Origin: Amoebophrya sp. A120
Taxonomy: Eukaryota > Protista > Dinoflagellata
Length of the DNA: 48,311 nt
Assembly (NCBI GenBank): GCA_905178155.1
Contig: CAJINV010000006.1
Span: 1,067,516-1,115,826 of the forward strand
Direction: 5' to 3'
Of this stretch, positions 194 to 48,065 are shown in pieces (positions within the stretch are counted from its first letter, which is position 1; each line of letters begins with the position of its first letter). The translations under genes were made by a program, and so were the position numbers. The notes under the pieces are model-generated. The model searched no databases and was not told where the DNA came from. It saw only the letters and a list, made by a program, of their open reading frames with translations.

Positions 194-3100
194 GTATTTG
201 AAGAGGCGGATGGACGTCGACAGTCCAGACGAGGGCGGAATCGAGGACTGCGTTGAGGAGGGTTCGTCGCAGGATGTGAAGAGTGGGGCTGCAGCAGCTG
301 CATCGACCCCGGGGCAGCCATCGTCGCAAGCAGATATTCTGGACACCACCGTAACATCTTCAACCCCGGCCGACTTTGACATCGGCGCCGTGCAGCTGGA
401 CCCGCTGGTGTGGAAGCAGGATTTGGCCCAGCAGAGGGGGATGTGGACGGGAGGTGATGGGGTTTTTCACAAAGTGGAAAATCAAAAGACCAGCGGAGGA
501 ACAACAGGAACATCAGGTACTAGCGCGAACAAAATGATGAACAACGCGAAGTGCAGGAAAAATAGATCTGTTCGTAGAGGTCTTCTCGCGCCGTCTGATG
601 ATCAAGAAGAAGAAGACTATTTCCTCCTGTCCGAGCAAAACCGCAAGCTCTACACGTCCTTCGGCGAAAACAGCAGAGAGGCGACAGAGCAGGAAGTTTC
701 CAGCCAAACCCAAAGTTTCCGGCGGGCGCTGGAGAGTGTTGACGGGGACAACTCATTTCGGGAAGCCGAGGCGTTGTCGGCTCTCGGGTTTTACCAGGAT
801 GCGGTGAAGGGAACGGATATTTTTACTGTTGATGGCTCATCAACAGCAGAGCAGCCTAGTTACGATCCGTCCCCCCGCCGAGGCAGATTTCTCCGGCCTG
901 TGCAGCAGCCTGGAGACGATTCTCTTCGGGTTGGTTATCAACTGTAAAAATGTCTGGGTCTGGAAGATTGCCGGCTTTGTCATGCACATTTTGCATGACT
1001 CCTCAAGTCTGTGATGCATGCCCTAGCATCACGGATTTTTAGAGGGCTTCCTGATGCCTATTCCGCATGGCAAATGCTCTTTCCGTACTGCAAAATTTGG
1101 ACTCTCTTGGCTGCTCATGCAATACAGATTTTTTTAGAATCCAAAATCAGCAGGATAAGTTGGATTCTTCCAGACCCAGACATTTTTACAGTTGATATTG
1201 GTGCCGCAGCTGCAACCGGCATAGAAACCTCCGTAGAGGGCAAAGCGAAGTCGGCTCTGCGCAGGTTAGGCGAGGACGAACACGGGCGAGTAACCGATTG
1301 GCGGTTCGTTTCCTTAGCAGAAACCTTCCGAGATTTCGAGTTCGTTTCCGCGGCGGAGACTGATATTGACAGTGAAAGAACTGAAAACAACAGTAAGGAG
1401 AAGCAAGATCATGGGTCGAAGAACGAAAAGAAATCGAAATCCACTTCATCCCAGGACCTAGTAGAAGAAGGTGACTTGTTATTGTCCCCCCAGAGCAGAC
1501 GCACCCTGCAGACCGTCCGTCCCCCGAACCCCTTCTGCGACGGCCCACCGCCCGCTGGCGACTGCACAATACCTCTAACCGACGAAGATAAGTGCACGTT
1601 TTATAACAATCTTTTCCAGTCCACCGTCGCGGTTTCCACCGACACCACCTTCGACCCAAATTTCCAATCCAGAGGATTTACCCAGGTCGACACAAGTGTC
1701 GAGTTCGGGTTTAAGAATGAGTTGAAGCTCAAGATGAACGCGCCGAAGGGAAAGTTGATCAAACTGATAATATATCAACTGCAAATGTCTGGGTCTGGAA
1801 GAAGGTTTCCAGACTTGTCATGCAGGTTTTCCATGACCTTGACCCATGAGGTCTGGTATGTAGGACATAGCATGACAGATTCTGTGATAGTTCTATGATG
1901 CCTATTCTGCATGAGAAACTGCATCTCGATTAGCAGAATTCCTGGAAGAAGTGTTTGACGAAGAAGGGAGAACAAATAGAGAAAGACTGCAAAAAGCGGA
2001 GGCTAAGCTGCGCACGAGAATACAAGGCTATACAAGGGAGGGGACATAGACGCAAGCTTTCGGGACTACGACCACCGGACGGAGGTAGACGAAATATACC
2101 AAAAGGAGGCCGGCCCACCAGTGACGGGATACAGGAGAGGAGAAAAAGTCACAACAGGGCAAGGGAAAGAGAAGAAGGGCGAAAAAACAAGAAAGACGGA
2201 ATTTCGGCACTACATGGGAAAGCTTCCGCACGACAACAAGAGAAAATGGGCCCTAGCGGTTCAATATGTGGACGACGGGACTACTGTCCTGAAGTTTTTT
2301 GTAGAAGATATAGAAGTGGTAGCGGCAGCTTTGAGAGCAGCAAGCTGGGCGCGCCAAAAAATCTATGAAACAGAAGGACAATTTTTGGCGCCCATGAAGT
2401 GCGAACTTGCCACGTCGCTGAAAGAGGCAGGCTTTCCAGCCTTTTGGAATTATGTTCGAAGAGAAGGACTTCCTAAAGATCTTAGGAATAAGGATAGTGC
2501 CAACGAACAAGGAGGGACAGCGCAAGGCTCTCAGGGGCCAAGTTCAGCAGAGCATAGGAATAGGGCAGCACCTGGCGTGCCAGGTCATGTCAAGACGGAA
2601 AAAACTAGAGGGGGCGGAGCTGGTGTGGATAGTCCAGGCGTTCTCTGTATCGTCGATGATATATTTTCTACCGGTGACGCAGCTCTATTTCGACATGCAA
2701 GACTGGGCGACGATGCTAGGGGAAATATCGCTAACAACAGCAGAGACGATAGGGATGACAGAGGAAACGGCTGAAGAACTGATGAGAAAGACGAACACAA
2801 ATGCAGAAACCTTCTACCGTGTGGCTTTCGGGGCGAAGATGCTAGGAATTACAGACCCATTCACGCTGGGGCTGAAAACACTAAGAGCAACAGCCCAAGC
2901 AAACGACTTGACAGACCCGGGGAGTTTCATCCAAATGGCAACAATGCCGCTCAAAATAGTAGGTGAATCGAAAGCAGGAATAGCAAGAGCCGTGGAAAGA
3001 AAGATCATGAAGAGAAAAGAAGCTGGCATAGCATTACTGCAGGCACTCAGAGACGGAGCATCGGTAAGGTTGTCTGCGGGGAGCGATCTGCGGGGGGTGG

Positions 3101-6100
3101 GAATAGTAAGAAAAACTAACAAAGTAAAGCCGCAGATGGTACAAAGTCAGCACGTGCGCAGATGCGACAGGAGTCTGCTTGCGGACAAAATAAAACAAGG
3201 GGGGAAAGGCAAGAAAGGGCAAAGTGACTACATGGCGAAGATATGGGTAAAACACACGGAAAAGGAAGAGGCCACGACGGTAACAATAGAGGAATGGAAA
3301 GGGAAAGAAGAGCACATGGCAACAATTGAAACGAGGCAGGATCACCTAAAGACAGAAGTTAGGACAGAAGAACGAAAATTCGTAGCGTATTGCAATAACG
3401 CCATAAGAGCGATAGAGATGGTGAAGAAGCAGCAACGCGAAGGGAGTGGAGGGGTGTGCGTGTGCTTGCTGGATTGCGACGAGATGAAAGAGAAAACGCG
3501 GGGGCTCCTGCGGAAAGAACAAGGGAGAGCGCTAGAGCTGCAGGAGGAAATAGAAAAAGCAGAGGAACAGATCCCGGGATTAGCAGCAGCCAGGCGCTGG
3601 GGGAAGCAGAACGCGCCCAAAACCCTCGCAAAGAGAGAAGCACAAGGGGGCTATACAGAAGTGATACCCTTGAAGGTGGCAAACGTATCGAAGCACGACG
3701 ACGAATATGCCGAATGGGTTCAGTACGATTTCGGGGCTAAAAATGTACCGACAAAACCGGTCTGGGAATGGCCGGAAATCAATGCCAAAAATAGAAAGAC
3801 AAGTGTGCATCTACCGGAAGACTATAGGAGATGAAAAGAAAGAAGGGCAGAAAACGGAGAAGGGAAGCGGTGACGGCGGGGACGACAGAAAGAAAGGCAG
3901 CGCAGGAGAGAGGAAGGGGAAGGGGGCAGGCAGCAGTGCGAAGGGAAACGCTCGCTGCGGAAAAGGCCCCAAGGGGAACACTGCGCCGACAGACACGAGC
4001 AGGGAGATAGGCAGCGGGTCATTAGCAGAAACAATCAGAAAAATGGTAGAAGGGGAAAAGATAAGAGCACAAAAAGAAGGAAGCGAAATGCTGCAGAGGG
4101 CGCTGGACATAATAGGAAGAGCCACAGACCTACTAGAAACAGCCGAAGACGTTCCACTAGAATCCCGCGCGACGTCGAGCAGCAGCACCAGGAGAGACGT
4201 GCCGGAAATAACAGAAGAGCGAAATGAATCAAAAAAAGAAGAAAAGGACGAAACAGAGGAAGATGCGTATTTCTACCCGGCGCAGGAGTATCAGGGAAGC
4301 CGCCCAGGATATGTGTACAAACTTGGGCATTTTGGCATGGGGTATTATAAGGATCAAGGACCGGAGGAGGCAACGCGGGAGATGTTTCAAAAAATTACGA
4401 TAGGGGGGCCAGGAGGCAAACTGCCCAAGAGGGAAGTCTCGAAAGAACAGAAAACAGCGAGCAAAGAAGTCGCAGGAGATGCGACGCGACATGAGAAGAA
4501 CACGCAGCAAGTGCGCCAAGTGCCGGAAAAGGAGGAGGAAACAGAAGCGACAGCACGAGAAGCAGCAGAACCAGCTGGAGAAGGGGGACTTGGAGGACTG
4601 AGGAAGAAAATCGCTAAAGATATAAGCGAAACAGAGATGGCAAAAGAAGATAAAAAGGAAGAAAAAAGATTCCCAACGCTGGAGGAGCTGAACGAGAGGG
4701 ACCGGAAGCGGGACCGCGAAGAGGCAGCGGAGCGGGAAGACGAGCGCAAGCGGCAGGAAGAAAGGAGATCCATGAAAAGACTGAAGTATGAAAACCCATT
4801 ACAAGATGAGTTAGCCCAGATGTATAGGAACACGCGCTGAGAAATAATGATGAAGGAAATGTTCAAAAATGATGAAAAGAAAGGGAACAGAGAACGAAAC
4901 AGAAGGGCGCATAATGGGGGCGCAGTGTTCTGGGTGTCGGCGGAGGGGAGAGGAAGCAGAGGAAAGAAAAGGAAGAGAAGAAAGAAAGTGGCTCCCTTGG
5001 TCGTCACAGCTAGCCTGCAAGGGCTCCGTTTCCGCCAGCTGAAAGGCACGGCGGTGCTAATCGTCTCGTCCTCGCCAGCCGATAGGCACGGCGCTGCTAT
5101 CCCGTCGTCGTCATTGCGTCCCTTTTACTAGTAGGTGGAAACAGGGTTGCTAAGTTAAAGACTGCGCTAAGGCAGCGCCCCCCTTCCCCAAGGGGCCCCC
5201 CGGGGCGGGCGCGGTGGCGGCTCTGCTAACGCGGAGCTTCAAAGTCCGACTCTACCTATGCGCATAAAAAGTAAGGGCGCGCGGAAGCAGGTCGGTAAAG
5301 TGCTTGAAAGGGGCATGCTTTGGGGTTGCCCGTCATCGTGATAGGGTCAACGTGTGTGACCAATAGACCCCCTGTATATCATAGCGCGCAACCGACCACA
5401 AAAGCAGTAGCGTTTGACGTTTGTAAGAATAACCCCGCAAGGCAACACTGGAGCTCCACCTTGCTCGCGGGCTTGGATGGTAAATCAGGTCAGCCACATC
5501 TAACGCCCACTGGCCGTATACACGCGTAAGAAATCGGAAACGGTTCAGCGGATGCGGTCGGGTGGTACCTGTAGGACGTGGAACGGGTGTCCACCTAGGG
5601 GTATTGGCAGAGGCTAAATCTGTTCTAGCGCCACGGTATTGGCAGAGGCTAAATCTGTTCTAACGCCACCCTGACAGGAGTCAAATGCCAAAGCGATACG
5701 ATGCGACTAGGTCGCACGTGGACAGCTTTTGGTAATCATGCAACACAGATTTCTACGTGATTCAGATTTAGCATTACAAGTTCCAACCTTCGAGACCCAA
5801 ACATATTTGCAATGCATATGATACGGAACGTGGAGTTACCGGTAACTGGCGGCGAAACGCTGTTCGACTTGACCACCTTCTTCCGCGGGCAGATCCAGGA
5901 CCAGAGTCTCTCCTGTTGCCGGCCCGGGGGGACGGTTAATCCTTCTACGCCGTTGATTTCCTTCAGGATAGCAAGAGCTCTACCGATCTTCATGGCGGCG
6001 AACAAAAACGAATTTAGGAATGACCCAGACAGGTACCCTGTGGAAGCGGATTTACCAATCAGATTTGGTGACAATAGTTTCATCGAGTTCAAGTTCATCG

Positions 6101-9100
6101 CGTCCGGGCCGGTGGCGCCGGGGAATGTTTTGGAGATCCAGGGGCCCGCCGGATACCGGTTTGTCCCGGATTTTTTCCAGCTGCGGGATATGGGCCCGGA
6201 GGGGTTCTGTCCCCCCCCGAAGCCGGGGGACGAGGGGTGTGCCTACCCCTATTTGTCGTTGACGGTGAATAGGATTTTGGACAACGGGATGGACCAGCCG
6301 AGGTTGATTCTCACCATGGACACGAAGGACGAAATTTGGTTGAAAATGTACAGGACGATCAACATGGTCACCGTCGAGAAGAAGGAGTACGACGCAACGG
6401 ATCCGGCGAATGTGTATTTGTTAGAAAGAGGGTTGATCGGGGACGATTTGGTGGTGGATGTGAACGCCACGGAAGTTACAAACGTTCTCCCCCCGCCAAG
6501 CTCCATGCCCGATAACCAGATCTACTTTGGCAGGAGGTACGCATTTATGCATTGCAAAAGCATCGTACTAGTATAAACCGCAATACAAATTTCCTTAGCA
6601 TTAGAAATGGAATTTGTAATGCGGATTTGCCTTTCCAAGACCCTCCGGTTTGTTTGAGAAACATAGACCCTCCGGTTTGTTTGAGAACGGATACTATCCC
6701 TTTCCAAATCAAAACACATTAGGACCCGGGGGGACAGGAAGAGCCCCCCGGTAGCGCTAGTCTCACATGGGTGCACACATAAGGACGTTGACGGAGAAAC
6801 ACACACACACACGCAAAAACACGTCGGCCAAAAACAAAAATAAAATGCGTCCTGCACAAACTGCCCTCACTCACTCACCGGGTGGATGCGCCGCCGAGGT
6901 CCGCAGATAGCTTATTGAGAAAAAGAATAAGACTAGTAATAGCTTAGTAAGAAAGAAAAAGATAGAAGTCGCAAAAACTACTACTAATGTTTTTGTGCTA
7001 GAATAGCCGCGCCGCTGAACAACGGGAGACGGCCTGTCCGGTGAGTGAGTACGCCGTCAACTGCTCGCCGGGGCGCTGCGTGGAAGGGCAGCGTCGCCGC
7101 AAGTCGAGCCGGGGAACTAGTTTCTTTGCTTTCGACTGCCTTTTATTTTTTATGTTCCCCGTCATCTCAATTCCCCCTTAACTTGCCGCCTTACTCTTCA
7201 CGGACATCTCGTGGATGACATCAGCGCGTAGAACGGTTCGAACCAGCCTCGGGCTACAAGGCGACAGGTAAACCATCCCTACGCCCTCCGCTTTGACCTT
7301 GACGAAACTGACTACCAAACACTCTGGGGATTTCTATCAGCAACAGCATTGCCGACACCTAGGGCCACGCCACCGCGCCTTCCGAGGGTAGATCAGACGG
7401 ACCACAGAAGGGCGCTGCGAGGTGGCAACGACATCACTGAAGCGGGAGAGCGGATACAAGGCCTTCGCTCAACTGTGTGGTGTGCGTTGTTTACTAGTCC
7501 TAGTTTCATCGTCCGCGTGTTACTAGCGTCCTGACCCTTCAGGTCGTCCCTGCCGCCGGTGGTCACGTCCGCGTGGCGCTATCAGCGAATCAGCGAAAAT
7601 AGGTTATCTCTCTCTCTCTCTCTAATGCGGATTTGCCTTCAGAAAATGCATGACTGCGATTACTACGAGTGCGATACTTTTGCACAGGATAGCATTGCAG
7701 GCGAGGGTACAGGGACCGCAACAGGCGGCGGTATTATAAAGTTTTTTTGTTGTTGCTTGTTCTTTCCAGCATGACAAAATGAGTCTTGTCTTCGAAAATA
7801 AAGTCTTGCATCACAGACTACACGACATGCGATCCGTTCCAAACCATACCAAAACAGCCCCCGCCCAACCACCAGTTCCAGATCAAATTCACAACCTTAG
7901 TCGCGGTCAACAACGGGGAATATCCAAATGACCTCGGCCCCAGCCCAGATTTCAACATGACCCACTGCATCCCCTTTCGAATCAGCAAATCCATCCTCGC
8001 GTTCCATGACCCGGACATCACCTATCCGCTAGAATGGCAGTCCTTCGTCGCCGCAGATTCCTTCCTCGACGTGAAACTCGAGTTCCCCCGGAAGTTCCCG
8101 CAGGATCTAGGGTTGACAAACCTCGAAGTCTACCCGCCTTCTTCCGGGTTTTTCCTCCCGAGAGGGCAAATTTTCAGCGACCGACAAGAATATTTACCGT
8201 TGCAGTTCGCTTCCATCACGGTGAACAAAATCCGGCCGTTCACGGCGCCGGTGGAAATCAACGGGACGACGTTATACCCAGCGACGAAGTACGTGCAAGC
8301 GCCGGGGGGCGTTATCAAATGCAAAAATGTCTGGATCTGGAAGAGTGTAAACTTGTCATGCAGGTTTTCCATGACCCTTGAAGTCTGGAATGCGGGACCT
8401 AGCATGACAGAGTCTGTGAGGTCTCTTTCATGCCTATCCTGCATGAGAAAATCCCTCCCAACTTGGTCAAAAGTGGACAGCTTTTGGCACTCATGCAACA
8501 CAGATTTTTGCATGATTCGGATTTAGCATGACAAGTTGCAATCTTCCAGACTCAGACATTTTTGCAATCCATAGGCGTGAATCTGAAACTAGTCTGCGAC
8601 CGGAACGACTCAACCCCGATAAACAAAGACGTCGAGCTATTATATGTAGAAACGTCCCCACCCCATAGTCAAGTTGGGATCTTAGCAACACAAATCTAGA
8701 AGTTTTGGGAGCCTCGCATGACAAGTTGCAGTTCGTAGTGTACTGCAGGTTCGTAAGGACAGCGGCATCACAAATCCATCTGCTCATCCTGTTCCCGGCA
8801 TTACAAATCCCAAAACACGACTAGCAATTGCCTCTCATGGGGACCCGCATTACAAATGTTTCTGTAGATGCAAATCTGCATGACAACTATGGGGTGGGGA
8901 CGTTTTTACTCAGCATACGAGCCGGTCCAGAACTACCACTGGTACATCATCGGGAACGCGAAAAACCCGACGACCGGGGTGGTTTCTACTCTCGGTTGGG
9001 AGCGGTATGAGCCGAAGGATTTACTCGTTTCCCAGTTCTATGCATTGCAAATATGTCAAGGAATGCAAACTTGTGATGCGCATTTCACAACACATACAAA

Positions 9101-12100
9101 TCTCTCATGCCGCAGCGGCAAAAGCTGCCCACTTTCTGACACCAAAGTGGGGAGTTTGTCATTCGGATTCGGCGTTCCGGAAGCTTTTCGAAATCTGTGA
9201 TACCAGAGCTTCCATGCCAGACCTTCTGCGTCATGCAAAAACAGCATGACTCTTCCAGACCGAGACATATTTGCATTTCATAAGTTCCCGGTGCAGTGGA
9301 ATCCAGAGACGAAGTGGATCGCTGGGTCGCAGGTGGAAGCCATGTTTGAAATCAAATTCAGAATACCGCTGCCCGTCGGTGGCGCAATTTACATCAAAGC
9401 GCCGCCGAATTACCGGTTTAGGTGCCCGATTACGAACATCATGGTCCTATCATATGTAAAAACGTCCCCACCCCAGAGTTGTCATGCAGATTTGCGATTG
9501 CAGGAAGATTTGCAATGCGCATCTCCATGAGAGGCATTGCCAGTCGTGTTTTGGGATTTGTAATGCTGCAAACAGCATAAGCAGATGGATTTGTGATGCG
9601 GTTGTCCTTGCTAACATGCACTACTTACACTACGGACTGCAACTTGTCATGCGTTGCTCTCAAAACTTCTGGATTTGTGTTGCTAAGTTCCCAACTTGAC
9701 TATGGGGGTGGGGACGTTTTTACATATGATAGCTCCCGGAGCCGAGTTACATGCCAATTTGCGTGTTTAACCCCATCCATCCTCTGTTGCAGGGTTGTGG
9801 CAGGATAGAACGGGATCTGCAGCAGGTGACTTTTGACATAAACCGTTTGGAAAACAGGATCGAGTATCTGAAGGAACTGAGCAAAATCAAACCCCAGGAG
9901 ATGACGCCGCAACAGAGATTGACTTTCATCTCCGAAACGGTGAACGGGACGAGGAGGGAATTAGATGTGAAAATGCTGTACAAGAGGGAATTAGAGGAAA
10001 TCATGGAGTACGTGCCGCCACCAAGTTCTGAAACCGATTCAACCACGATCACAACTTTGACGATAACCAGTACCGCGTCTGGCGGGTTCTCGATCACAAA
10101 TACTCCGCCTACAACCACGACAACAGAGCCGCCCACAACCCTCCCCCCGAACGGCCTGGCGACGACCGCCAAGCCGGAGGGGAAGCCGCCGAGCGGGTGC
10201 GAGCTGCGGCACGAGGTCTTGTTTGCTTATCAGACGACGGATTACCCGCTATGAACTGCAAATGTGTTTGGGTCTGGAAGAATTATGCAGAAGACTTCTC
10301 ATGATGCACATTTCGCAAGACCCATGATGTCTGTGATGCATGCTCTAGCATCACAAACTTTTTGAGGGCTTTCTGATGCGCATACTGCATCGTAGCACAA
10401 AATCGACTCCTCTTGCTGGTCATGATGCAATACAGATTTTTTTAGAATCCGAAGACAGCATCAGAAGTTGCCTTCTTCCAGACCCGGACATATTTGCACT
10501 TCATACCCGCCGGTGTTCTACGAAACGAAGATGACCCGGTCGATCCGCGATCCGATCACGGGTATGCATTGCAAAAGCATCGTCAGGAGAGGTCCTAGGA
10601 GTAATCTTCGCAATCATGCATTGCAAATCTCTTTCGCAAGGGAAATCGGCATGACAGATTCCATCTGTCATGCTGAACTAATTTGTAATGCAATCACTAC
10701 TAGAAGCACAAGCAGCGCGACACTTTTGCAATGCATAACTGGCATCCGGCAGGAACGGTCGCAGCAGGTGGCGATCCCGATCATGACCTACAAGTTCAAC
10801 ATCCGGATGGAACTGCCGGATATGCATTGCAAATATCGATCTGTGTCTGGAAACTTGTGATGCTAATTTATGAATTGCGGGGATCACACTGCAATAGGCA
10901 GCCGCGCATGACAAGTTTCTGGGCTCCTTTGTGTTTCGCTTTCCGCATGACAAATAACTACATTTGTGCATGACAGGCAAGCGGCTCTTTATTTCCTGCT
11001 CCCGCATTACAGGTTCAAGACTCACATATTAAGACAAGCATGACAAGCTTGCACTCTACTTCCAGACCCGGACAACATATTTGCATTGGATACCGGAAGC
11101 GGACGCGCAGCTCCCGAACAGCAACCGGTACAACGATTTCGACGTGATTATGCTGGACCGGATGAAGAGAACCATTGACAACAACGTGGCGGTATCCTGT
11201 GCAAAAGTGTCGTACTCGTATTGCAGTCATGCATTACAAATCTTTTTCTTAACGTAAACCCGCATTACAAATTTTCTCTCTCATGCTGAGAGAATTTGCA
11301 ATGCATTTAAATACGAGTACGATACTTTTGCAATGCATAGGCGGTGCCCGTCCCCCAATTCTACACGGACTACAAAGTGACCAACTTCATATGCATCGCA
11401 AGAGCATCGTGCCAAGTAGTAGCAAGCGCATGACAGATTTACTGCGTAGCATGTTGACAAATGGACTTTGTAATGCTGATTTGGCTTCGCAAAGAACATT
11501 TCTCTTGCAGGAATGCGATTAGTGGCGCGTCGTGCACGATGCTCTTGCAGTGGATACTTCACCTTTTGGTACGACCACGAGCGGACGCGGTTCCGCACTC
11601 AGGAGGAAAATAAAGTGATCAACGGGATCGACGAGGCCTATGACCCCTATCCTATGTAAAAACGTCCCCACCCGCCCATAGCTGTCATGCAGATTTGCCA
11701 ATGCAGGAACATTTGTAATGCGCACCGGCATGGGAGGTACTTCCAATCGTGTTGTGGAATTCGTAATGCTGTAAACGGGATACGTGCGTGGCGTTGTGAT
11801 GCGGCTGTGCTTGATAAACTGCACTCCAAGACACAGAGGAACTTGTCATGCGTGACTCTCAAAAGTTCTGGATTCCTGTTGCGAAAGCCCCATCTTGATG
11901 ACTATGGGGTGGGGACGTTTTTGCTCAGCATAACCCGCGCGGAAAAATCATCCCCTTCTATGTCACGATCGCCATCAACGAGCGGATTCCGGCGGGGCGG
12001 GGGTTCAAGGTGATGGAATTTACCGTCCCGGACAATGGGTTTGGCATGGAAATCGCCTTGCCGACGGATGTCCAAGTTCTCTCCGAGGCCGTGCCGGTGC

Positions 12101-24135: not shown

Positions 24136-24139
24136 TAGT

Positions 24140-24202: not shown

Positions 24203-24265
24203 TGAGAACACCTGGGACGAGCATGAGGAGCAGGACCATTACGCTAATTGCGAGTGCGACGCGTG

Positions 24266-24528: not shown

Positions 24529-24594
24529 GCGTGCTGCGCGAGGAAGAAAAGGGGCATGTCCGCGTTTACCTTCCGCGATAAGTGGCGCTGCGAC

Positions 24595-24885
24595 TATCCG
24601 GAGTAAAATAAACGTCCCCACCCCAGAGTTGTCTTGCAGAATTGCAATGACAAGGAAATTTGTGGTGCGCATACCCATGGTAGACATCTCCGATCGTGTT
24701 TTGGAATTTGTGATGCTGTGAACAGGAAAGGCAGATGAATCTGTGAAGATTCGGCTGCACTTGCTAACCTGCACTACTACACTGCGGAGTGCAACTTGTC
24801 ATGCGTGACTCCCAAAACTCCTAGGCTTGTGCTGCAAAATAATCCCCATCCTGACTCTGGTGTGGGGACGTTTTTACTCAGGATA
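24595..24885. mobile_element. Introner family C
   Basis: DR GCGAC. Confidence 0.95.
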
Positions 24886-25669: not shown

Positions 25670-25820
25670 TATCCACAGTAAATTTCCCGTACACGTACAA
25701 ATGCGGTCTCTGCATGACAAAACTTGGCTTCGATTCTAGCTTAACATGACAAGTTTTACGCTCCTAATTGGCGAAATTTGTGACGCGCCTTGTACATGTA
25801 CGGGAAATTTGTATTGCATA
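25670..25820. mobile_element. Introner family F
   Basis: DR CCAAA; absent from homologous segment ~29830. Confidence 0.9.
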
Positions 25821-25988: not shown

Positions 25989-26126
25989 TATCCTGTGCAA
26001 AAGTATCGTACTCGTATTGCAATCATGCATTACAGGGCAAATCCCCATTACAAATTTTATTTCTGACGCTGAGGAAATTTGTAATGCATTTATACGAGTG
26101 CGATACTTTTGGTTTTGCAGCTCATA
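25989..26126. mobile_element. Introner family B
   Basis: DR ATACC/ATGCC; empty site TTAATACCATG at ~29990-30000. Confidence 0.9.
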
Positions 26127-30972: not shown

Positions 30973-31127
30973 TGTGCATTGCAAAAGTATCGTAGTACAA
31001 CTCGTAGAAATGCATTACAAATTTCCTCAGGATGAGAGATAAAATTTGTAATGCAGATTTGCATTGGAAACAAGATCTGTAATGCAAGACTTGCATTTGT
31101 ACGAGTACGATACTTTTGCACAGGATA
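30973..31127. mobile_element. Introner family B (TGT start)
   Basis: DR CAAGT/CGAGT. Confidence 0.9.
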
Positions 31128-31245: not shown

Positions 31246-31560
31246 TATCACAATGAAAAACGCCCCCACCCCCGCACTTGGGAGCATTTGTATTGCAAAC
31301 CTTTCCAACAGAAACACTCGCCCTCTTGCATCTAGCAGCATCACAGATTTCCAGTCGTGAATTATAGCGAAGATTTGTATTGCAACAGATCCCAGCAAGA
31401 GCGGCGCTCGTCATGCGAGCAATGCTATATACGCCTAGACTCTGCATCACAAAGATAAAGATTCATTATTCCTTTCATGCATGACAAAAAGTTTTCATTT
31501 GGAAACGTCGCATCGCAAATTATTGCAACTTTCGGAGTGGGGGCATTTTTCACGGCAATG
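31246..31560. mobile_element. Introner family C variant (ATG end)
   Basis: DR CCGCA; frame restored. Confidence 0.85.
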
Positions 31561-38336: not shown

Positions 38337-41300
38337 ATGAGGATGATGAAATTCTGTCTCCTTCTTGCCTCCTACCACCAGGGCGGCGGAGGCGGACCAC
38401 TTTTCGCCGGCGCGGTGTGGGATCGATTGTTTGGCCGGGAAGATGAAGATGGTTTCTTAGGGCCAGCACATGATGTTCCTGCTCCTCGAGAGCAGAAGAA
38501 GGACTTGACGTTGAGCGGAGGAGAATCTTCTACTTTCGCCACGACTTCTAGTTCTGCCACGACTTCTAGTTTCGCCGGAGACGAGCACAAGACCAGTTCG
38601 TCGCCCTCTCTCTTGACGACCGATGCGCAGGCGGCAGCGGCCAGTCTTCCTGGTGCGCACGACCAGAAGATGTTGAAGAAGTATCGGCTGCGGGGATCGA
38701 AAAATCAACACTTCTTGGAGGACAACGCCGCTAGTACAACTTCTTCCCAGGACCACGACGGGCACAATATCGAGATGGACGGTTTCAATACCGCGGCCGC
38801 GGGAGCGCTGCAGACGCAGACCACTTCTGCGGATAAAGATCCTGCTGATGAAATAGAAAACCAGGAACAAATTATAGCGCCAAACACGTCGAAAGAGAAC
38901 ACGAACCCAGGTGCAGCAGCTACCGGGAAGGGCGTTCTTGAGCGCAAAAGTTCCAAGCACAAGAACCACGGGGACCACTTCTACACGAGCACAACAGGAG
39001 CGAAGTACAACGAACAACCGGCGGAAGTACAAGTAGACGGGCAACATCAACCCGAAGCTCCTGCAGCTGCGTTCCTGAACACCAGGGTTACAAGTACAAC
39101 TGTGGCCGATGATGACACACCTCCTCCTCGTCCCCCATCTCATACTATGTTGAAGTCGAAAACGCCCCCGGCCCCGGCCTCCCCGCACAGCTTATCAACC
39201 AGAACCACGAGGACTACACTGCAGCCTCAAGAAGTTCTTGTCGGAGCTCCTGTTGCAGTGCTACCACAGCACGACGATATTAACACAGGCTCGGCTTCAT
39301 CGTCGTTTTTGGGTCGTCGTTGTTTCGGTGATGGGGGCGGATGTGGTGGTAGTCAACAAGCTCCTCCAGCAGGCGCTCCCCCGCCGGCGCCCAGGGCGCC
39401 TGGTACAACTCCTACGCCGAAAAATTTGAATCAGAACCAGCAACAATCCACAACTCCTGTTGCTGTTGTATGGCGTTCTCAAACGTTACATTCTGAACTG
39501 TTACGTGGATTTGTAATGCAAGAACAGCAACAGTGAAACAGGCAAGATTGCAGCTTTCGCATCACAGATTTTCCACAGATCATCATGCTGCTTAGCGCTT
39601 CAAAAATTTGTCATGCTAAGCACGTTGATCAAGTGGAGGGTGGTGGCAGTTTTGCATGACAAATCCGTGTAACAGTTGAGAACGTAACACTTGAGAACGC
39701 CATATGTTGCGGGAGCACCAGGCCTTCCGCTTGCACCGGGAGGTGCTGGCGGTGTCCTCTCGTCTTCCGGGGGTGATCCTGGCGCCCCTGGTGCAACCCG
39801 GCAACCCCTGTTGCAGAGCAGTGCAGCGCAAGTGCCTGCGCCAGCAGGTAGCGCAACTTCAGCGCAACCATTACTGCAGAGCAGTGCAACTACAGCCCCG
39901 CTTGCGCCCGGACCTCCTCCTGGTGGGAGTCTTCAACCTCCGCCCCCAGAGGCGAGGACGATGTTGACCACCAGAACGTCGGTCCAACAGCGCGCCGAGG
40001 GCGGACTCCCACCTCCAACCACAACTGTGCCAAGCAGTGCGACAACTACGGGTGCTGCCCCGCTTGCAACAAGTGCAACTTTTGGTGACTCCTCTACTTC
40101 CACTGCGTTGCGACCTCCCGGACCACCGTTCGCGCCCTCGGGCGGCGGGGGCGCGGAATCGGTCTATCAACCGGGAATAGGCCCTACCCAGCGTGTAGTT
40201 GGAGTTGCAACTGGACCTGGAGCAGGCGGATCGCCACCTCTGGCGACGACTACATTGACGGCTCCTGGCGCACCTGCTCCGCCCGTGCCGACCACGACGA
40301 CGATGACCACTCCGTCCGGTGTTGTACCCGAAGGTCCGCCCCCCGGTGGTGATGTGGGCACCAGCTCGGGTGGTCGAGGTGGGACGACCGCAGTTGATGC
40401 TGGTCCTGATGTTGAGAAAGCACCTGAACTACAACCACTACCTGTTAAGGTTTTGCGCCCCGAGGACTGGTCTCTGGCGGAAATGCAAAATACACTGCCT
40501 CAAGGAGACAGCAAAGCAAAGGAGATGCTTATTCCAGAGCAAAAACAATTGAGCCCACGACTAACGAGGACCCTAGAGTCGGTTACAGTTCAACATGAAT
40601 ATTATCGCATACATGGTTGTGGTTCTACTTTCGTGGTTTGATAACCACGAATGTAGAACCAGCATATATCTTCCAGTAATACGCATGACAATCAAGTAGA
40701 AGTACAAGAACAGGTCTCCTGGGGTCGTCATCGTCAATGGCCATGAGGCTACTTTCTTTCTCCTAGCATATACGATGCGGAAATCGCTAAAGCGGACGTA
40801 CGCACGAAAATTTTGGTGGAAAATGTGATGGGCTGGAAGCTTTCTACCTCGCCAGATCAACCTTCACCGGAAGGTCTTTCGACTGGTGCAACAACTACTG
40901 GCGAAGCAAGCGATGATCCGAAGACAACGACCGTCCGCGTCCGCAAGTGTTATCAAGATACGAAGATCAGTATCCTGTGTGAAAACGTCCCCACCCCGCA
41001 GTCAAGATGGGAAATTTGCTAGACAAATCCACAAGTTTTGGGACTAGCGCATGACAAGTTTGGGGACGCAGCATAGTCCTGCCTAGGTACTTGTTAGCCG
41101 CGACGCATTACAGCTCCACTCATCTCTTATCCTGATTCGCGCATGACAGATTACCAAACACGAGCAGAAAATGCCCGTCATGCTGAGCCGCATGATAGAT
41201 GTTTCTGGGCATACAGATTTGCACGACAACTTCTTTGGATTGGGGACGTTTTTTCTCTGGATATGCAAGGGTGTTGGTCCGAGCAATTTCATCGAACATT

Positions 41301-44300
41301 TCTTCGTGACATTTGACCTTCCGGACGGCACGGAGTGGACGTCCGAGTATGGTCCGAACGGCGGCGTGGATATGGATTCTGCAAACATGTCCTCTGGGTC
41401 ATCATATTGTTGAAGGGTCGTCCACCAGGTTTGTCATGCTTGGCCAGTATGACTTGTCTCAACGATCTGTGATGCACGTTCTTACCCAAAAACCGCAGCT
41501 CCTTGCTGTCATGCACAAAACAAAGCGGTTTGCCATGCAGAAAGGGCACCAGTACCACCTAGCGCCCCAAAGCATTTATTATGCTTGGTTGTGAATCTGA
41601 ATGGAGGCGTCCTCATGACTGTCCCACCCGCATCACAAGTTTCCAGACTCCGACATGTTTGCACTTGATCGCGGACACCTATGAGAGCAGGAAGGACAAT
41701 CGGAGGCTCGCGAGATTGAGTTATTTCATGTGCAAGCATTATATTAAACAAGTATCGAGTACTCGGACTCGGACAATGAATTGCGGTTGCGCATGACAAA
41801 TCTAACTTTCCACCTTAATATGCTCCAGCATGAAAAATTGCATTTTTCTTCGATCATCTTGTTCTACAACGTACTTCGGAAATGAAATTCGTACGTGCAA
41901 TTCATTGCTACGAAAAGTAAAAAGTACTTAGTGCGCTACTTTTGCGATGCATAGGAGTGGCCTATCAGATGATACTGGGCAGGCCCCTTTAGACGATGCT
42001 GCGTGGGAGAATTTCAAGCAACAGGACCGGGATTTCCAGGCCAGACAAGATGAGTTCGGTGTGCAAGACTGGGGAGACTACATGGCAGCGTATCGGGCCC
42101 TTGGCAAACAAGATCCCGCCATATGCCTAAAAATGCAAATATGTCTGAATCTGGAAGAGCGCACTTGTTTATTGTCATGCATCTTCTCGTGGACCAAGCA
42201 AGAGCAACCAGATGGACTGGAAGACTAGATACACAGAGAAGCATGACAGATTCTTGCACAGGAGCTTCCTAATGCCCAATCTGCATGTTGAGAAATTCGC
42301 TCTATGCGTACAACTAGCAAGAAAAAATAATGTGGGTATCTCTTGGCAAGACCAAGAGATATTTGTCTGTTCATCCAGACACATCAGACTTGGCAAGACA
42401 CGTGGCAGTGTAATTTCAGACACCATGATTGGGATATTTGCACTGGATACGCCGGCGAAGCGAAAAACCAATATAAATCGCCGTGGTTGTGTGCGTTTCA
42501 GAAAGGCGCTGTCCAAAAGGTCGCGAAAGCCTGGAGAAACGACAAGAGCACACTTTTGCAGACCGGAATCAGCGCTTTGATTGAGCCGGTCTGGGAAAAC
42601 TTCGAATTCGAAGTTATGGGGCTGAACAATGGATATCAAGAGGAAAAATCCCCCCTCCCCATATCGAAATGGAAATCTGTGATGCAGGATTTGTGCACAC
42701 AAATCGGATTTGTCCTGCGGTAGAGGACTGCAGACAGATACAAAGCCCGGAAAGGGGCGGCTTGGGGTAGGCACTTAGCATGGCAGACGTCTGCCCTAGT
42801 AGCGTAGCAGCATCACAAATCGCCTGCGAAATGCAGCGGAAGCCCTGGCTTTGCTCTCTTGCAGGATAGACTACATCTGTGGCGACAAATCAGCATCACA
42901 AATTTTGAAAAGCGCGCCTTTTCGATATGGGGAGGGGGGATTTTTCCTCACAATAATGGCGAAGAATTAAAGAAGCGCCTCAACCAGCTCGCCGTTGCGA
43001 CCGGTTTCGTCGCGGGAGAATACAGCGCTCTTCGGCCATACGGCAAGAACTGTCAAACGTGGACGAACGAAGTGGCTAACGCCCTCCGGACGCAGAACGA
43101 TTACGAGTTGAACGTGAGCCAAAAGTCTCGGTTTTGGCCCGGTGGTTCTCGCCTCCGGACGGGAAAGGATTTTTCGGACCCAGAACAAGGCCCAAATTAC
43201 TTGGTGGAAACGCGAGCCCCGGAGCTGGAAAAGAAGCTCTACGCGTTCCGGGTATGATATTGATAATGCACATAGGTCTGGGTCTAAATAAAGAATTGAA
43301 CAACTTGTGATGCGAATTTTGCCGGACACAAAAATCTGTGTTGCATGAGCACCAATAGTTGTTCATTTCTCGCAACGCAAAAAGCCGATTTCCCATGCAG
43401 AAAAGGCATGATAGGACGGCATGTGCACAACTTGTAATGCGCTTGTCCGCATTCCAGGCCACAACCACATATGTGGTTCAGAACACGCATGGCAAACAGT
43501 CGTGTCGAAGTCTTTCAGACCCAGACATGTTTGCACATTCGATATCGGGAGCTATGAAATGCAAAAATGTCTGGGTCTGGAAGGATCCGAACTTGCGATG
43601 CGCATTTTAGAACACAGAAAAATCTCTCATGCATGGGTAGCAAAAGCTGCCGACTTTTTGCCACCAAAATGGGGGATTTCTCATGCGGATTCGGCATTGC
43701 GGAAGCTTCTCGAAACCTGTGATGCTAGAGCCTCCATGCCAGACCTTCTGTGTCATGCAAAAACAGCATGACTCTTCCAGACCCAGACATTTTTACATTT
43801 GATAGGAGCGCCTACGCAACAAGAGCTGTGAGCCGGGAATGGACCCGCGGAAAAAAGAGGCGTACATCTCGCTGTTTGCTATTCCACGAAAAAAACGTTG
43901 TTAGTGTAAATTAGTGATGCGCAACATGCAAGATGATTGCGTCCGTCATGCTTGGCATGCATTGCAGGGTCCATGAACAAAGGGCGTTCTTACGTACTAT
44001 CTGCGCATGACAGGTTTTTGCTGTCATGCCAGACAGATTTGTAATGCTGTTCCTCCAAAAAAGTGACAATTACAATGTTTTTTTCTTGGATATTCGCCTA
44101 CCACAGTCTCTTGCTCAAATTCTGGATACAAGAAGTGGACACTCTCTTGCAGAAACATGGACTTTAGGCACTGCAAAAGGTTCTTCGTACTTACTCGTAG
44201 AAGTCGTAGTTGTGATTCTTGCAAGAAGTATGCATTATGCAACAAGTTTCATCTACTTCCTAGAGGTAAAAAATATGCATTGCGCCTTGCATTTCTCATG

Positions 44301-44773
44301 CTGAGAAAATTTGTTAAAGCAATCCCATACCCATAGTACGACCACGATCTCGAAATGATCTCGATGCCTTTGCAGTGCATAAAGGTGACGCGCTTCGCAA
44401 ACGGAACGCAAACGCTGAAATCGCGAAAATTTCCATCCAAGCCGAGTGCCCACCACCCAGGCGTATCAAATGTAAAAATGTCTGGGTCTGGAAGATTGCC
44501 AGGTTTGTCATGCATATTTTGAATGACCCAGGATCGATCTGTGATGCATGCCTTAGCATCACAGATTTTCAGAGGACTTTGTGATGTAGTCTCTACCGCA
44601 TGAGAAATGCCCTCGTCTTCACGGAGCACAAACTGGAGTTGTCCTTTTGCTGGTCATGCAATACAAATTTTTTTAGAATCCAGAGACAGCATGACAAGTT
44701 TGAAATCTTCCAGAGGACCCAGACATTTTTACGTTTGATAAGGCGAGTCGGTCACCTATATCCTGGACACTAA
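38337..44773 (+). CDS. Gene 4: putative secreted protein with long low-complexity N-terminus and a permuted papain-like (PPPDE/DeSI-like) thiol peptidase domain
   Basis: Signal-like MMKFCLLLASY; Thr/Pro/Ala-rich exons 38337-39468 and 39710-~40600; then ~40771-40970, 41269-41370 (IEHFFVTF...SEYG), 41676-41721, 41959-42121, 42455-42633, 42961-43252 (FVAGEYSALRPYGKNCQTWTNEV), 43550-43552, 43810-43879, 44098-44164, 44387-44463, 44746-44773. Junction at 40600-40770 unresolved. Confidence 0.65.
39469..39704. mobile_element. Introner family E
   Basis: TIR TATGGCGTTCTCAA; DR TGTTG; joins ORFs 38337 and 39691 in frame. Confidence 0.95.
40971..41263. mobile_element. Introner family C
   Basis: TIRs clear; DR decayed (ATCAG/TGCAA). 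Confidence 0.8.
41371..41670. mobile_element. Introner family A variant (ATC end)
   Basis: DR GTGGA/GCGGA. Confidence 0.8.
41722..41953. mobile_element. Degenerate introner family B
   Basis: DR TGAGT/GGAGT; frame restored. Confidence 0.75.
42122..42449. mobile_element. Degenerate introner family A
   Basis: DR CGCCA/CGCCG. Confidence 0.8.
42634..42955. mobile_element. Introner family G
   Basis: TIR TAT....GAGGAAAAATCCCCCCTCCCCATATCGAAA; DR ATGGA/ATGGC. Confidence 0.9.
43253..43544. mobile_element. Introner family A
   Basis: DR CCGGG/TCGGG. Confidence 0.85.
43553..43804. mobile_element. Introner family A
   Basis: DR GGAGC. Confidence 0.95.
43880..44092. mobile_element. Degenerate introner
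   Basis: TATTCCACGAAAAAAA / TTTTTTTCTTGGATA; DR TTTGC/TTCGC. Confidence 0.75.
44165..44381. mobile_element. Degenerate introner family B (TAG start)
   Basis: TAGGCACTGCAAA / TTTGCAGTGCATA; DR lost, but removing element +5 nt keeps frame. Confidence 0.65.
44464..44740. mobile_element. Introner family A
   Basis: DR AGGCG; similar to 936-1197. Confidence 0.95.
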
Positions 44774-46048: not shown

Positions 46049-46308
46049 TATCAACACAGTGCGCAACTCCACCCCCTCCCCCTCATTTGTAGTGCATTTC
46101 CAGCAGCGCCAGCAGCAGTAGATGAAACCAATGCAAATCAAATGCGGTCTCTGCATGATATACAAAACCACGCGCTGAGCATAGTGCTAGTGCAGTTTGG
46201 GCTTCCAGAACTTGTGACGCAAGCACAGCCGAAAGGCTCACCTCAGACAGGATTTGGCATTTTTGCATTACAAACGTGGGGCGGGAGGGGAACTTGTGGA
46301 CTCGGATA
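46049..46308. mobile_element. Introner family D upstream of gene 5 (UTR or intergenic)
   Basis: Reverse copy of 17095-17315; DR AAACT/TAACT. Confidence 0.8.
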
Positions 46309-46632: not shown

Positions 46633-48065
46633 ATGAAGATGTCTCGGAACAAGTCCCTGACCATGATGAAGAAAATGTCAGTCGCTCCTGCGCCTCTGAC
46701 TGCAGCTGTTTGCAGCGTGCTGGTCGTATTATTACACGCGTTGTGCTGCGGGTGGTCCTCGTATGGATTGCAAAAATGTCTGGGTCTGGAAAGTTGAGCT
46801 TGTGAAGATGCTGCGTTTGGATTCTAAAAAAATCTGTATTGCATGAGCAGCAAAGAGAGTGCAATTTTTGCTACACGGAATAAAGGGCATAATTTGTCAT
46901 GCGGTATAGGCATCAGGAAGCCCTCATAAAATCTGTGATGGTACTAGGGCATGCATCACAGACATCAGGAGTCACGCAAAATGTGCATGACAGACCTTGG
47001 ATCCTTCCAGACCCAGACATATTTGCATTTGATACCTCGTTTTCTTGCGTGACGAGCGTTCGTGCAGTCCTTCTCCTTGCCAGTCCCAGAAGCCGCGGGC
47101 AGCCTCGTGGCGGAAGCAGGGGTAGCAGCAGAGGTCGTCGTGGTCATGCCGGAACGGGTACAGGGGTGGTGCCGGGTATGGGCGTGTCAGGATTGAAATC
47201 GTCAGAGTTGAAATAGTTTGTCATGTTGCATGAATTGCAAGGCATGAAGCGCCTCTCTTGCAGGGATGGCAAGTGAGGCCGACTGTCAGCCTGTTTGGGG
47301 TCTGCGGTCGAGCTGCGAAATAAAGTAGCATGACAAAAGAGGACGCCTTCTGGGGCCCCTAAACAGCATGACAAACTGAATTTACACGGTGCAGAGATCA
47401 TCTGTCATGCGCCGCTTGGAAATTGGGCTTCCAACTGGTATCGATTTTATGCATGGCAAACTCTTTCAACTCTGACGATTTCAATCCTGACGCTTCCATA
47501 CTGGGCGCGGAGCAAGGTGGAAAGGCCGCGTCGGACCAAGGGGCGCACTGGGGCGACGTGCCGGACCCAGTTTGGGCCGTGATCAACGAAGGCGCACGCG
47601 CGCGTTCGTATCCGGGCTGGTCCGACTTGATTTCGCTTTTCAGAATCGTGTTTTCCGGTGAGCTCCAACCGGGGGCCGCCCAGCTGGAGCACGCCCGAGA
47701 CGCGGTGTTGCTGGGGACCATCCAGCGTGCGTGGGGTTCTGAAACGGGACTACCGATCACTCCGGTCGAAGAAGGTTTGATTCGGTGGCATCTCTTTTTC
47801 CAGGCGTGGAGCACGTTTCCCCAACAGGTTGTCTCGCCGCTTGCCGAAGTAAGCAGGCGCTTTCGCGGCTTTTCTTCGGTGCGCCAGCCGGCCCGCCTGG
47901 GCCAGTTCCTCTCGGAGGAGCTTTTCGCTACGAGTCACGTCGGATGGCAGCAATCCACCGGGCCGGGCGAGTACATTGCGGGTCAGCAGTTCGCTTCCAA
48001 GTTTCTCGCCACGTTCGAGACGGCTCTCAAGCGGCCGGGTGCCGCAACGTACCTGCGGGATGGTA
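46633..48065 (+). CDS. Gene 5 (3'-partial): signal-peptide-bearing protein of unknown family
   Basis: Exons 46633-46761, 47040-47176, 47506-48065 in frame; hydrophobic AVCSVLVVLLHALCCGW; Gly/Arg-rich linker; continues beyond window. Confidence 0.75.
46762..47034. mobile_element. Introner family A
   Basis: DR CCTCG; empty site at 24064-24068. Confidence 0.95.
47177..47500. mobile_element. Introner family H
   Basis: ~37-bp TIR with core GTCAGGATTGAAATCGTCAGAGTTGAAA; DR CCGGG/CTGGG. Confidence 0.95.

What the first reader, a model, noticed from the sequence alone, without database searches (positions are those of the whole stretch)
936..47500. Shared internal motif GCAT(G/C/T)ACA(A/G) arrayed in both directions in otherwise unrelated families
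TTGTCATGC, GCATGACAA, GCATTACAA, GCATCACA(A/G) and CTGTGATGC recur several times per element in families A-H, including those with unrelated TIRs (39469, 42634, 47177). They persist in decayed elements (43880-44092) and look rare in exons. Inference: binding sites for a common trans factor (transposase, or a splicing/excision protein) that defines these introns.
Basis: partly seen in the sequence, partly recalled or inferred. Interest (0 to 1): 0.75.

Follow-up and report, generated by a model that had tools for sequence, protein, structure and literature searches.

The report
Phased binding sites inside jumping introns
The jumping introns of the marine parasite Amoebophrya A120 all carry one 9-letter DNA word, repeated at a fixed 31-32-letter spacing and on either strand, which is likely the landing site for a single, still unknown DNA-binding protein (likely a transposase) that would move them, rather than a splicing signal.

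Summary
The motif is real. GCATBACAR occurs 124 times (3-12 expected): 116 in introner elements or their fragments, 0 in 10.4 kb of exons. The window is Amoebophrya sp. A120; the elements are its known TAT..ATA introners with 5-bp target duplications. In 311 elements found without using the motif, in a second assembly, 30 of 32 clusters carry it. New anatomy: 920 of 921 sites lie more than 34 bp from a terminus; same-strand sites recur 31-32 bp apart (about three helical turns) in about 7 of 10 TIR groups; fixed positions are 4.4-fold more conserved than spacer while the degenerate base drifts at the spacer rate. The motif ignores the transcribed strand (290 vs 307), and inverted pairs show almost no compensatory change. 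It therefore likely reads as double-stranded DNA, as subterminal transposase sites do in MITEs. No transposase was found, and a splicing role is weakened, not excluded. The 'decayed' example (43880) is a multi-copy family member. Side finding: insertions are mostly in-frame, 2-bp or 5-bp duplication plus one base, the latter a likely excision footprint.

The parts
936..1197 (.). Introner, TIR group A; 2 exact motifs
   Evidence: 5/5 TSD, perfect 30-bp TIR
977..1034 (.). Example of the lattice: reverse-strand sites at 977 and 1009 (32 bp apart) and a one-mismatch forward site at 1026 (17 bp further)
1775..5818 (.). Group A element split by an unrelated 3.8-kb insertion; arms about 1775-1933 and 5704-5818; 3 exact motifs in the arms
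   Evidence: sequence; junctions approximate
6546..7691 (.). Short group B element split by a 1-kb insertion; 1 exact motif
   Evidence: 5/5 TSD, paired TIRs
8313..8573 (.). Introner, group A; 3 exact motifs
8638..8917 (.). Introner, group C, one-directional array: 5 motifs, all sense on the transcript
9039..9282 (.). Introner, group A; 1 exact motif, 4 one-mismatch
9448..9731 (.). Introner, group C in the opposite orientation: 4 motifs, all antisense on the same transcript
10250..10505 (.). Introner, group A; 2 exact motifs
10563..10737 (.). Introner, group B; 3 exact motifs
10821..11092 (.). Introner, group A; 6 exact motifs
11193..11339 (.). Introner, group B; 2 exact motifs 31 bp apart
11390..11556 (.). 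Introner, group B; 2 exact motifs
11648..11932 (.). Introner, group C; 4 motifs, all antisense
12191..12452 (.). Introner, group A; 3 exact motifs
12524..12790 (.). Introner, group A; 3 exact motifs
12890..13087 (.). Introner, group B with internal palindrome; 2 exact motifs
13182..13459 (.). Introner, group A; 4 exact motifs
13507..13660 (.). Introner, group B; 3 exact motifs
16767..17034 (.). Introner, group A; 5 exact motifs
17095..17315 (.). Introner, group D; 3 exact motifs
17549..17899 (.). Truly decayed group A-like element (eroded left TIR, 5-bp TSD kept); only 1 exact motif in 351 bp; counted as 17749-17899 in the statistics
   Evidence: empty paralogous site at 28485
18473..18641 (.). 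Element, group J; 3 exact motifs; TSD not recognisable
18708..22318 (.). Group B element split by a 3.4-kb insertion; arms about 18708-18800 and 22255-22318; 1 exact motif
   Evidence: junctions approximate
22736..22885 (.). Element, group B; 2 exact motifs 31 bp apart
24140..24203 (.). Truncated right end of a group A element; 1 exact motif
24266..24528 (.). Introner, group A; 2 exact motifs
   Evidence: empty paralogous site at 28485
24595..24885 (.). Introner, group C; 2 exact motifs
25670..25820 (.). Element, group J; 1 exact motif
25989..26126 (.). Element, group B; 2 exact motifs
30973..31127 (.). Element, group B; 3 exact motifs
31246..31560 (.). Element, group E-type TIR; 3 exact motifs
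39469..39704 (.). Introner, group H; 4 exact motifs; absent together with one 5-bp repeat from a transcript-like contig
40971..41263 (.). Introner, group C; 3 exact motifs
41371..41670 (.). Diverged introner; 4 exact motifs
41722..41953 (.). Diverged introner; 1 exact motif
42122..42449 (.). Diverged introner; 2 exact motifs
42634..42955 (.). Introner, group E; 3 exact motifs
43253..43544 (.). Introner, group A; 2 exact motifs
43553..43804 (.). Introner, group A; 1 exact motif, 4 one-mismatch
43880..44092 (.). Introner, group G, multi-copy (not a decayed relic); 3 exact motifs
44165..44381 (.). Old element with no exact motif (2 one-mismatch sites); its removal is part of a 412-codon open frame
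44464..44740 (.). Introner, group A; 4 exact motifs
46049..46308 (.). Element, group D; 1 exact motif
46762..47034 (.). Introner, group A; 3 exact motifs; missing from a transcript-like contig; empty paralogous site at 24061
47177..47500 (.). Introner, group F; 3 exact motifs; missing from a transcript-like contig
48066..48130 (.). Left end of a group A element; no partner end in the window
7850..13760 (+). Host gene segment: 768 open codons after removing 15 elements plus 5 bp each (at most 277 for 0, 3, 4 or 6 bp)

Best explanation
The motif is a 9-11-bp word repeated through the interior of Amoebophrya A120 introners, kept by selection and spaced 31-32 bp apart on either strand, and it is likely the double-stranded-DNA binding site of one mobilising protein, likely a cut-and-paste transposase, that would coat each element and bring its ends together. 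Shown: enrichment, conservation, the motif-free terminal 34 bp, the spacing rule, strand indifference, 5-bp TSD with empty sites. Inferred: that a protein binds it; that 31-32 bp means three helical turns and same-face cooperative binding; that the protein is the transposase; that selection acts on copies that still transpose, with near-neutral decay after insertion; that one enzyme serves all families, so they are one system of non-autonomous elements. Splicing would then be directed by the paired termini and the 5-bp repeat, not by this motif.
For: Enrichment. Constraint: fixed positions differ from subfamily consensus in 211 of 6,308 cells (3.3%), spacer in 4,332 of 29,409 (14.7%), the middle base in 209 of 1,394 (15.0%), TIR 9-30 in 6.4% (18 subfamilies, 228 of the 311 elements). 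Geometry: 1 of 921 sites is centred within 34 bp of an end, 373 at 35-48; same-strand pairs at 31-32 bp in a mean 7.3 of 10 TIR groups, while shuffled layouts reach 6 at any spacing in 8 of 4,000 trials and never more; opposite-strand offsets of 16-17, 33-34, 47-49, 65-66 fit the same period; the spacers differ between groups. Strand-blind: 290 sense vs 307 antisense sites, 27 sense-only and 26 antisense-only among 198 of 311 elements with a strand call, and all 17 subfamilies with 3 or more calls insert both ways; 8638 (5 sense, 0 antisense) and 9448 (0, 4) sit in one 768-codon frame. Not pairing: 2 compensatory among 133 changed core cells; group C arrays are one-directional and pair no motif in the MFE. 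Selection on masters: shared variants are depleted 6-fold (5.1 vs 30.3 per 1,000) but private ones only 2-fold (19.5 vs 39.3; Fisher p 1e-8); private rate 19.0 vs 20.5 in coding-located vs uncalled copies. Cut-and-paste: 10 of 14 six-bp insertions are a 5-bp duplication plus one base (null 1%), 3 of 4 in the window. Precedent: PMC1636448 (abstract and section 14 read), PMC6188088 (passages read).
Against: No transposase: none in 30 window ORFs or 87 of 236 locus ORFs of 200+ aa, no autonomous element among 5 long TIR pairs; Farhat et al. report none in A120 and argue against transposase mobilisation (PMC7789003 section 16). All 198 coding-located elements keep at least 2 one-mismatch sites, so need of a degenerate site for splicing is not excluded, and the detector favours young copies. 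Phasing to the terminus is not robust (period 10.5: p 0.055 and 0.033; periods 9 and 11 fit better). Spacing-changing indels are only weakly depleted (0.26 vs 0.39 per 100 bp, p 0.053). Divergent 16-bp pairs share the middle base more than pooled expectation (102 of 211 vs 73), and 52 of 110 window motifs pair with another in the MFE. Decay with isolation is not significant in coding-located group A (rho 0.10, p 0.3). Groups may share the lattice by descent. 'Uncalled' copies are not proven non-genic. 6 of the 10 '5+1' insertions also read as perfect 6-bp duplications.
Confidence: 0.62

Rival explanations
1. A host dsDNA-binding protein reads the lattice and marks each element for co-transcriptional excision or for chromatin packaging; elements that carry it are tolerated because they splice well in a cell that appears to lack U1.
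For: Everything that points to dsDNA recognition fits equally. Every coding-located element keeps 2 or more near sites. Private changes are still halved at the motif. No transposase is known in A120 and U1 was not detected (PMC7789003 passages).
Against: Private-change rate is the same in coding-located and other copies; 4 of 198 coding-located elements and window 44165 have no exact site; density halves in isolated copies, significantly in groups B and G; constraint is strongest on shared variants, as expected for selection on transposing lineages.
Confidence: 0.17
2. The motifs are pairing modules: inverted copies 16-17 bp apart form 9-bp stems in the RNA or in single-stranded DNA, folding the intron so that its ends meet for splicing or mobilisation.
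For: Interiors fold better than shuffles (median z -2.4; 23 of 41 below -2) and 52 of 110 motifs pair with another; divergent pairs share the middle base in 102 of 211 vs 73 expected; 89 of 133 core changes are G-U compatible on one strand or the other.
Against: Only 2 of 133 changes are compensatory; the middle base is non-complementary in 85 of 195 cells; convergent pairs match in 31 of 85 vs 38.5 expected; groups C and I are one-directional arrays; the commonest spacing is same-strand; a fixed sequence is not needed for pairing; transitions are the commonest changes anyway.
Confidence: 0.08
3. A single-stranded-RNA-binding splicing factor recognises the motif in the pre-mRNA.
For: The motif is confined to introns; 141 of 198 elements carry both polarities, so most offer a sense copy.
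Against: No sense bias (290 vs 307); 26 of 198 coding-located elements have only antisense exact sites and 4 none; 9448 and 11648 have none in sense in a continuous frame; 31-32-bp spacing has no evident meaning on ssRNA.
Confidence: 0.04
4. The lattice is a functionless relic: all families descend from one element built of a 31-32-bp palindromic repeat.
For: One period explains both same-strand and inverted offsets; all families share end architecture.
Against: Within subfamilies the fixed positions are 4.4-fold more conserved than the spacer while the middle base is not; spacers are unalignable between groups. Common descent may be true, but it cannot explain the constraint.
Confidence: 0.05

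Closest known systems
Amoebophrya A120 introner elements (Farhat et al. 2021, PMC7789003; passages, section 16 and supplement passages read)
   Same: Same elements: IR starting TAT + 7 nt + AAA, 3-5-nt direct repeats, about 240 nt, non-canonical splicing; window protein is 100% identical to an A120 protein.
   Different: In the parts read there is no internal motif or spacing rule (supplement text: 0 hits for GCAT, figures not visible); the paper argues against general transposase mobilisation, while the motif, uniform 5-bp TSD and 5+1 insertions argue for it.
Emigrant MITE / pogo-like Lemi1 subterminal motifs (PMC1636448; abstract and section 14 read)
   Same: Non-autonomous TIR element with repeated internal motifs in both orientations, bound cooperatively by the transposase.
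   Different: [quoted passage not shown]
IS607-family ends, IS1535 (PMC6188088; passages read)
   Same: Helically phased 9-bp motifs from 20-60 bp inside the end that nucleate cooperative transposase binding.
   Different: Prokaryotic serine recombinase, no TIR or TSD, one-turn direct repeats; here three-turn spacing, both orientations, TIR and TSD present.
IS3EU/GingerRoot (PMC10045372, PMC12730594; passages read)
   Same: TA..TA (TAY..RTA) termini on eukaryotic TIR transposons of the integrase-like DDE group.
   Different: TSD usually 6 bp there, 5 bp here; no transposase to compare.
hAT subterminal repeats, including hAT5 (PMC6188088, PMC12730594 passages); Mu, Tn7, IS21 ends (recalled, from no call)
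   Same: Multiple short internal transposase sites; hAT5, and as recalled Mu and Tn7, make 5-bp TSDs.
   Different: hAT repeats are described as variably spaced; none is known to be spliced out without a trace; no enzyme evidence here.

Membership tests
Amoebophrya A120 introner elements | Inverted repeat starting TAT, seven variable bases, then AAA | tested here: met
   vs PMC7789003 passage
Amoebophrya A120 introner elements | 3-5-nt direct repeat at the boundaries | tested here: met
   36 of 41 window elements match 4 or 5 of 5; empty paralogous sites at 24061 and 28485
Amoebophrya A120 introner elements | Removed from transcripts | tested here: met
   Contigs of run X3 (RNA is the tool's guess) skip 241 = 236+5 nt at 39469 and leave 139 nt = 746-278-329 between 46756 and 47503; 3 elements direct, others inferred from ORF continuity
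Amoebophrya A120 introner elements | Host organism is A120 | tested here: met
   P0001, 100% identity, named Amoebophrya sp. A120
MITE with subterminal transposase-binding repeats | Short, non-coding, high-copy, TIR and TSD | tested here: met
MITE with subterminal transposase-binding repeats | Repeated internal motif under sequence constraint | tested here: met
MITE with subterminal transposase-binding repeats | Cognate autonomous element or transposase sharing the ends | tested here: inconclusive
   None in the window or 467 kb of loci; the whole genome was not available
MITE with subterminal transposase-binding repeats | Transposase binds the motif | not testable with these tools
   needs EMSA, footprinting or pull-down
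IS3EU/GingerRoot | TA..TA termini | tested here: met
   PMC10045372
IS3EU/GingerRoot | 6-bp TSD | tested here: not met
   5-bp match, 6-bp not; only removal of element+5 restores frames
IS3EU/GingerRoot | IS3-like DDE transposase | not testable with these tools
   no autonomous copy found
hAT5 | 5-bp TSD | tested here: met
   hAT5 definition from PMC12730594
hAT5 | hAT transposase and hAT-type termini | not tested
   no enzyme found; termini not compared with hAT profiles

The most novel reading that the evidence does not exclude
All A120 introners are one frame-neutral transposon system run by a single unrecognised protein: it reads a three-turn lattice of one 9-bp site, inserts with a 5-bp repeat that splicing removes exactly, leaves an in-frame 6-bp scar (5-bp duplication plus one untemplated base) when it excises, and, still bound to the DNA, marks the element for U1-independent splicing; together with the genome-wide 2+1 insertions this would drive the lineage's fast protein evolution.
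Probability: 0.12. Interest if true: 0.9.

Novelty: new variant of a known kind. Interest (0 to 1): 0.58.

Why it matters
A120 has about 30,000 repeated non-canonical introns whose mobilising enzyme and splicing route are open questions (PMC7789003). A single conserved site with a fixed spacing turns almost 2,000 reported families into one system, gives a bait for pulling down the missing protein, and gives a clean mutational test that separates mobilisation from splicing. It also argues against the published view that a transposase cannot be responsible. The in-frame insertion signature, if it holds genome-wide, offers a mechanism for the reported rapid protein evolution.

Tried and rejected
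No whole genome is held, so all statistics come from the window and 156 loci (467 kb non-redundant) fetched with a group A TIR pattern, which over-represents group A (163 of 311). First reading of the ends as TA-duplicating Tc1/mariner: rejected, the duplication is 5 bp outside TA. No listed holder is on record as RNA; raw RNA runs X8 and X9 laid only 133 and 2 reads and were uninformative. Direct RNA evidence for 5650-18900 was not obtained. Pfam: no transposase or integrase in 30 window ORFs or 87 of 236 locus ORFs. The 1,104-bp TIR element in L021 is a group F-like element with a nested GC-rich insert, not autonomous. TIR pattern in viral contigs: 0 matches. Helical phase of sites relative to the terminus: inconclusive. 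Indel constraint on spacing: borderline. TSD mismatch as an age clock: 33 copies, too few to tell. 17549 vs 24266 as a post-insertion pair: too diverged to align. Element length modulo 3: no clear bias (110/97/104). Earlier scan notes: none. Roy et al. 2023 Curr Biol is not held and was not read.
Full report
Setting. The window is an introner-dense stretch of Amoebophrya sp. A120: the ORF at 27362-28882 is 100% identical to a protein named A120 by its sources, and the elements match the published A120 introners, whose inverted repeats start TAT, then seven variable bases, then three or more A (PMC7789003, passages). I curated 41 whole elements of 138-328 bp plus five interrupted or partial ones. 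36 of 41 have a 5-bp direct repeat matching at 4 or 5 of 5 positions outside TAT..ATA. Paralogous genes give single-copy empty sites at 24061 and 28485, so this is a true target duplication. Contigs of run X3, which the tool only guesses to be RNA, skip exactly element+5 bp at 39469 and, by length, at 46762 and 47177; two low-depth contigs retain 42122 and 43253. Removing element+5 bp opens frames of 768, 696, 412, 274 and 261 codons, longer in each of the five regions than removal of 0, 3, 4 or 6 extra bases.

Observation. GCAT[GCT]ACA[AG] occurs 124 times against 2.8-12.4 expected: 110 in the 41 elements, 6 in fragments, 8 in the remaining 37.7 kb, 0 in 10,433 exonic bp. Of 15 window families 14 carry an exact site and each of these exceeds its shuffles. 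For an independent test I fetched 156 loci (467 kb non-redundant) from a second assembly with a group A TIR pattern (contigs JACKZZ01...), which shares families with the window at up to 93% identity. A detector that does not use the motif found 311 elements; it recovers 25-26 of the 41 window elements with 1 extra, and nothing in 10 shuffled windows. They fall in 32 clusters, 30 with the motif; density is 12.2/kb inside and 1.2/kb outside, and 397 of the 489 outside hits lie near TIR-like ends or locus edges. The middle base is A in only 10 of 931 sites.

The terminal 34 bp are motif-free (1 of 921 sites), and 373 sites lie 35-48 bp in, with outward-pointing peaks at 36-37 and 46-47. Same-strand neighbours lie 31 or 32 bp apart in 16 and 11 clusters. 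Lumping clusters into 10 TIR groups and drawing one copy per group, a mean of 7.3 groups show that spacing, while shuffled layouts reach 6 groups at their best spacing in 8 of 4,000 trials and never more. Opposite-strand offsets (16-17, 33-34, 47-49, 65-66) follow the same period. The spacers differ between groups. Some groups are mirror-symmetric (A, E, F, H outward; B inward), others one-directional (C, I). Against a strict helical reading: phase relative to the terminus is borderline at period 10.5 and fits 9 or 11 better, and indels of 2 bp or more are only weakly depleted between paired sites (p 0.053). The groups may also share the lattice by descent.

Constraint. In 18 subfamilies (228 of 311 copies) the seven fixed positions differ from consensus in 3.3% of cells, the spacer in 14.7%, the degenerate middle base in 15.0%, TIR positions 9-30 in 6.4%. 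So a sequence is read, and the free base is an internal neutral control. Variants shared between copies are depleted 6-fold, private ones 2-fold. That is the pattern expected if selection acts on lineages that keep transposing and relaxes after insertion (inference; private variants mix both phases). The private rate is equal in coding-located and uncalled copies (19.0 vs 20.5 per 1,000). Density falls from 15.3 to 6.7/kb from the best-connected to the most isolated copies, significantly in coding-located groups B and G but not A. The one clearly eroded window element, 17549-17899, has 1 exact site in 351 bp.

DNA or RNA. A codon model gave strand calls for 198 of 311 elements, 144 of 145 agreeing within loci. 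Sites are 290 sense and 307 antisense; 27 elements are sense-only, 26 antisense-only, 4 have none; subfamilies insert both ways. In the window 8638 (5 sense) and 9448 and 11648 (4 antisense each) interrupt one frame. This all but excludes a single-strand RNA binder. Pairing: interiors fold better than shuffles and 52 of 110 motifs pair with another, but group C pairs none, only 2 of 133 changed stem cells are compensatory, and the middle base is non-complementary in 85 of 195 cells; convergent pairs match no better than chance, divergent pairs somewhat better. Hairpins look like a by-product of inverted sites. A host dsDNA binder that helps splicing stays open, because all 198 coding-located copies keep two or more one-mismatch sites.

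Mechanism. Most likely (0.62) a transposase-like protein binds the sites cooperatively on one face of the helix, three turns apart, across the 110-330-bp element, positions catalytic subunits on the TAT ends, and inserts with a 5-bp stagger; the host removes element plus one repeat from the RNA using the paired termini. Binding, the enzyme's identity and the splicing route are inferred. An independent hint of cut-and-paste came up in the alignments: clean insertions inside copies peak at 3 bp (56 of 123) and 6 bp (14), deletions do not; 10 of 14 six-bp insertions are a 5-bp duplication plus one base (null 1%; 6 also read as perfect duplications), as are 3 of 4 in the window, which is what excision of a 5-bp-TSD element with one added base would leave; 45 of 56 three-bp insertions are a 2-bp duplication plus one base (null 18%), also 21 of 23 in non-element repeated DNA, and these are unexplained. 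No transposase was found, and Farhat et al. found none in A120.

Known systems and novelty. Subterminal transposase-binding repeats are established in Emigrant/Lemi1, IS1535 and hAT elements. The ends resemble IS3EU/GingerRoot (TA..TA) but fail its 6-bp TSD, so I do not file them there. In the 20 further A120 rows of Gozashti et al. 2025 dataset sd07 that I saw (22 of 58 in all), the superfamily column reads 'Unknown' throughout. I found no description of the motif: searches; passages of PMC7789003, PMC12130899, PMC9860276, PMC11282704, PMC12005148; one supplement text of PMC7789003 and 12 of 14 of PMC12130899. Supplementary figures of PMC7789003 (S19-S25) and Roy et al. 2023 could not be seen and may show it.

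Verdict. Real, constrained and patterned; a new variant of a known kind of signal in a known set of elements, useful because it points to the missing mobiliser of about 30,000 introns. Interest 0.58.

Noticed in passing
L001-L156 element copies; window 16767, 24266, 25989, 46762 and others: Small insertions are mostly in-frame even in non-coding DNA: 3 bp = 2-bp duplication plus one base of any kind (45 of 56, null 18%; 12 of 16 in the window; 21 of 23 in non-element repeats) and 6 bp = 5-bp duplication plus one base (10 of 14). Possibly excision footprints or a repair signature of staggered breaks; could feed rapid protein evolution.
   Followed up: partly
element ends, e.g. window 8313-8573, 11193-11339: TIR positions 4-8 are no more alike between the two ends of one element than between different elements in groups A and B (0.64 vs 0.67; 0.45 vs 0.60), so those bases need not pair.
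   Followed up: partly
window 1-58: Seven tandem GGGAAACC units at the window start, unlike the TTTAGGG telomere reported for A120.
   Followed up: no
window 1934-5700: 3.8-kb purine-skewed insertion inside an introner, three overlapping + strand ORFs (255, 470, 388 aa), no TIR and no Pfam hit above cut-off; unknown mobile element.
   Followed up: partly
window 18800-22255 and 6634-7620: Further large insertions nested in introners; the first holds 352-355-bp near-perfect tandem repeats (21342-22130) and a repeated 30-bp end-like segment at about 18897 and 22127.
   Followed up: no
window 37040-38095: GC-rich (69%) 1-kb palindromic element with long imperfect inverted ends; 92-bp repeats at 34344, 35430, 36839 nearby; two motif copies at 36446 and 36554 lie in a 108-bp-spaced repeat there.
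   Followed up: no
window 32760-33210: One exact motif and several eroded motif-like words outside any recognised element; possibly a long, old relative.
   Followed up: no
window 15330-18700, 22900-26400, 27200-30800, 46300-47200: Tandem paralogous gene blocks with filled and empty insertion sites; the same 5-bp site is filled at 17549 and 24266 and empty at 28485.
   Followed up: partly
L021 505-1608: Group F-like introner carrying a nested 800-bp GC-rich inverted-repeat insert with many AGAGG/CCTCT units.
   Followed up: partly
L018 2-1090: C-5 cytosine DNA methylase domain ORF next to introners.
   Followed up: no
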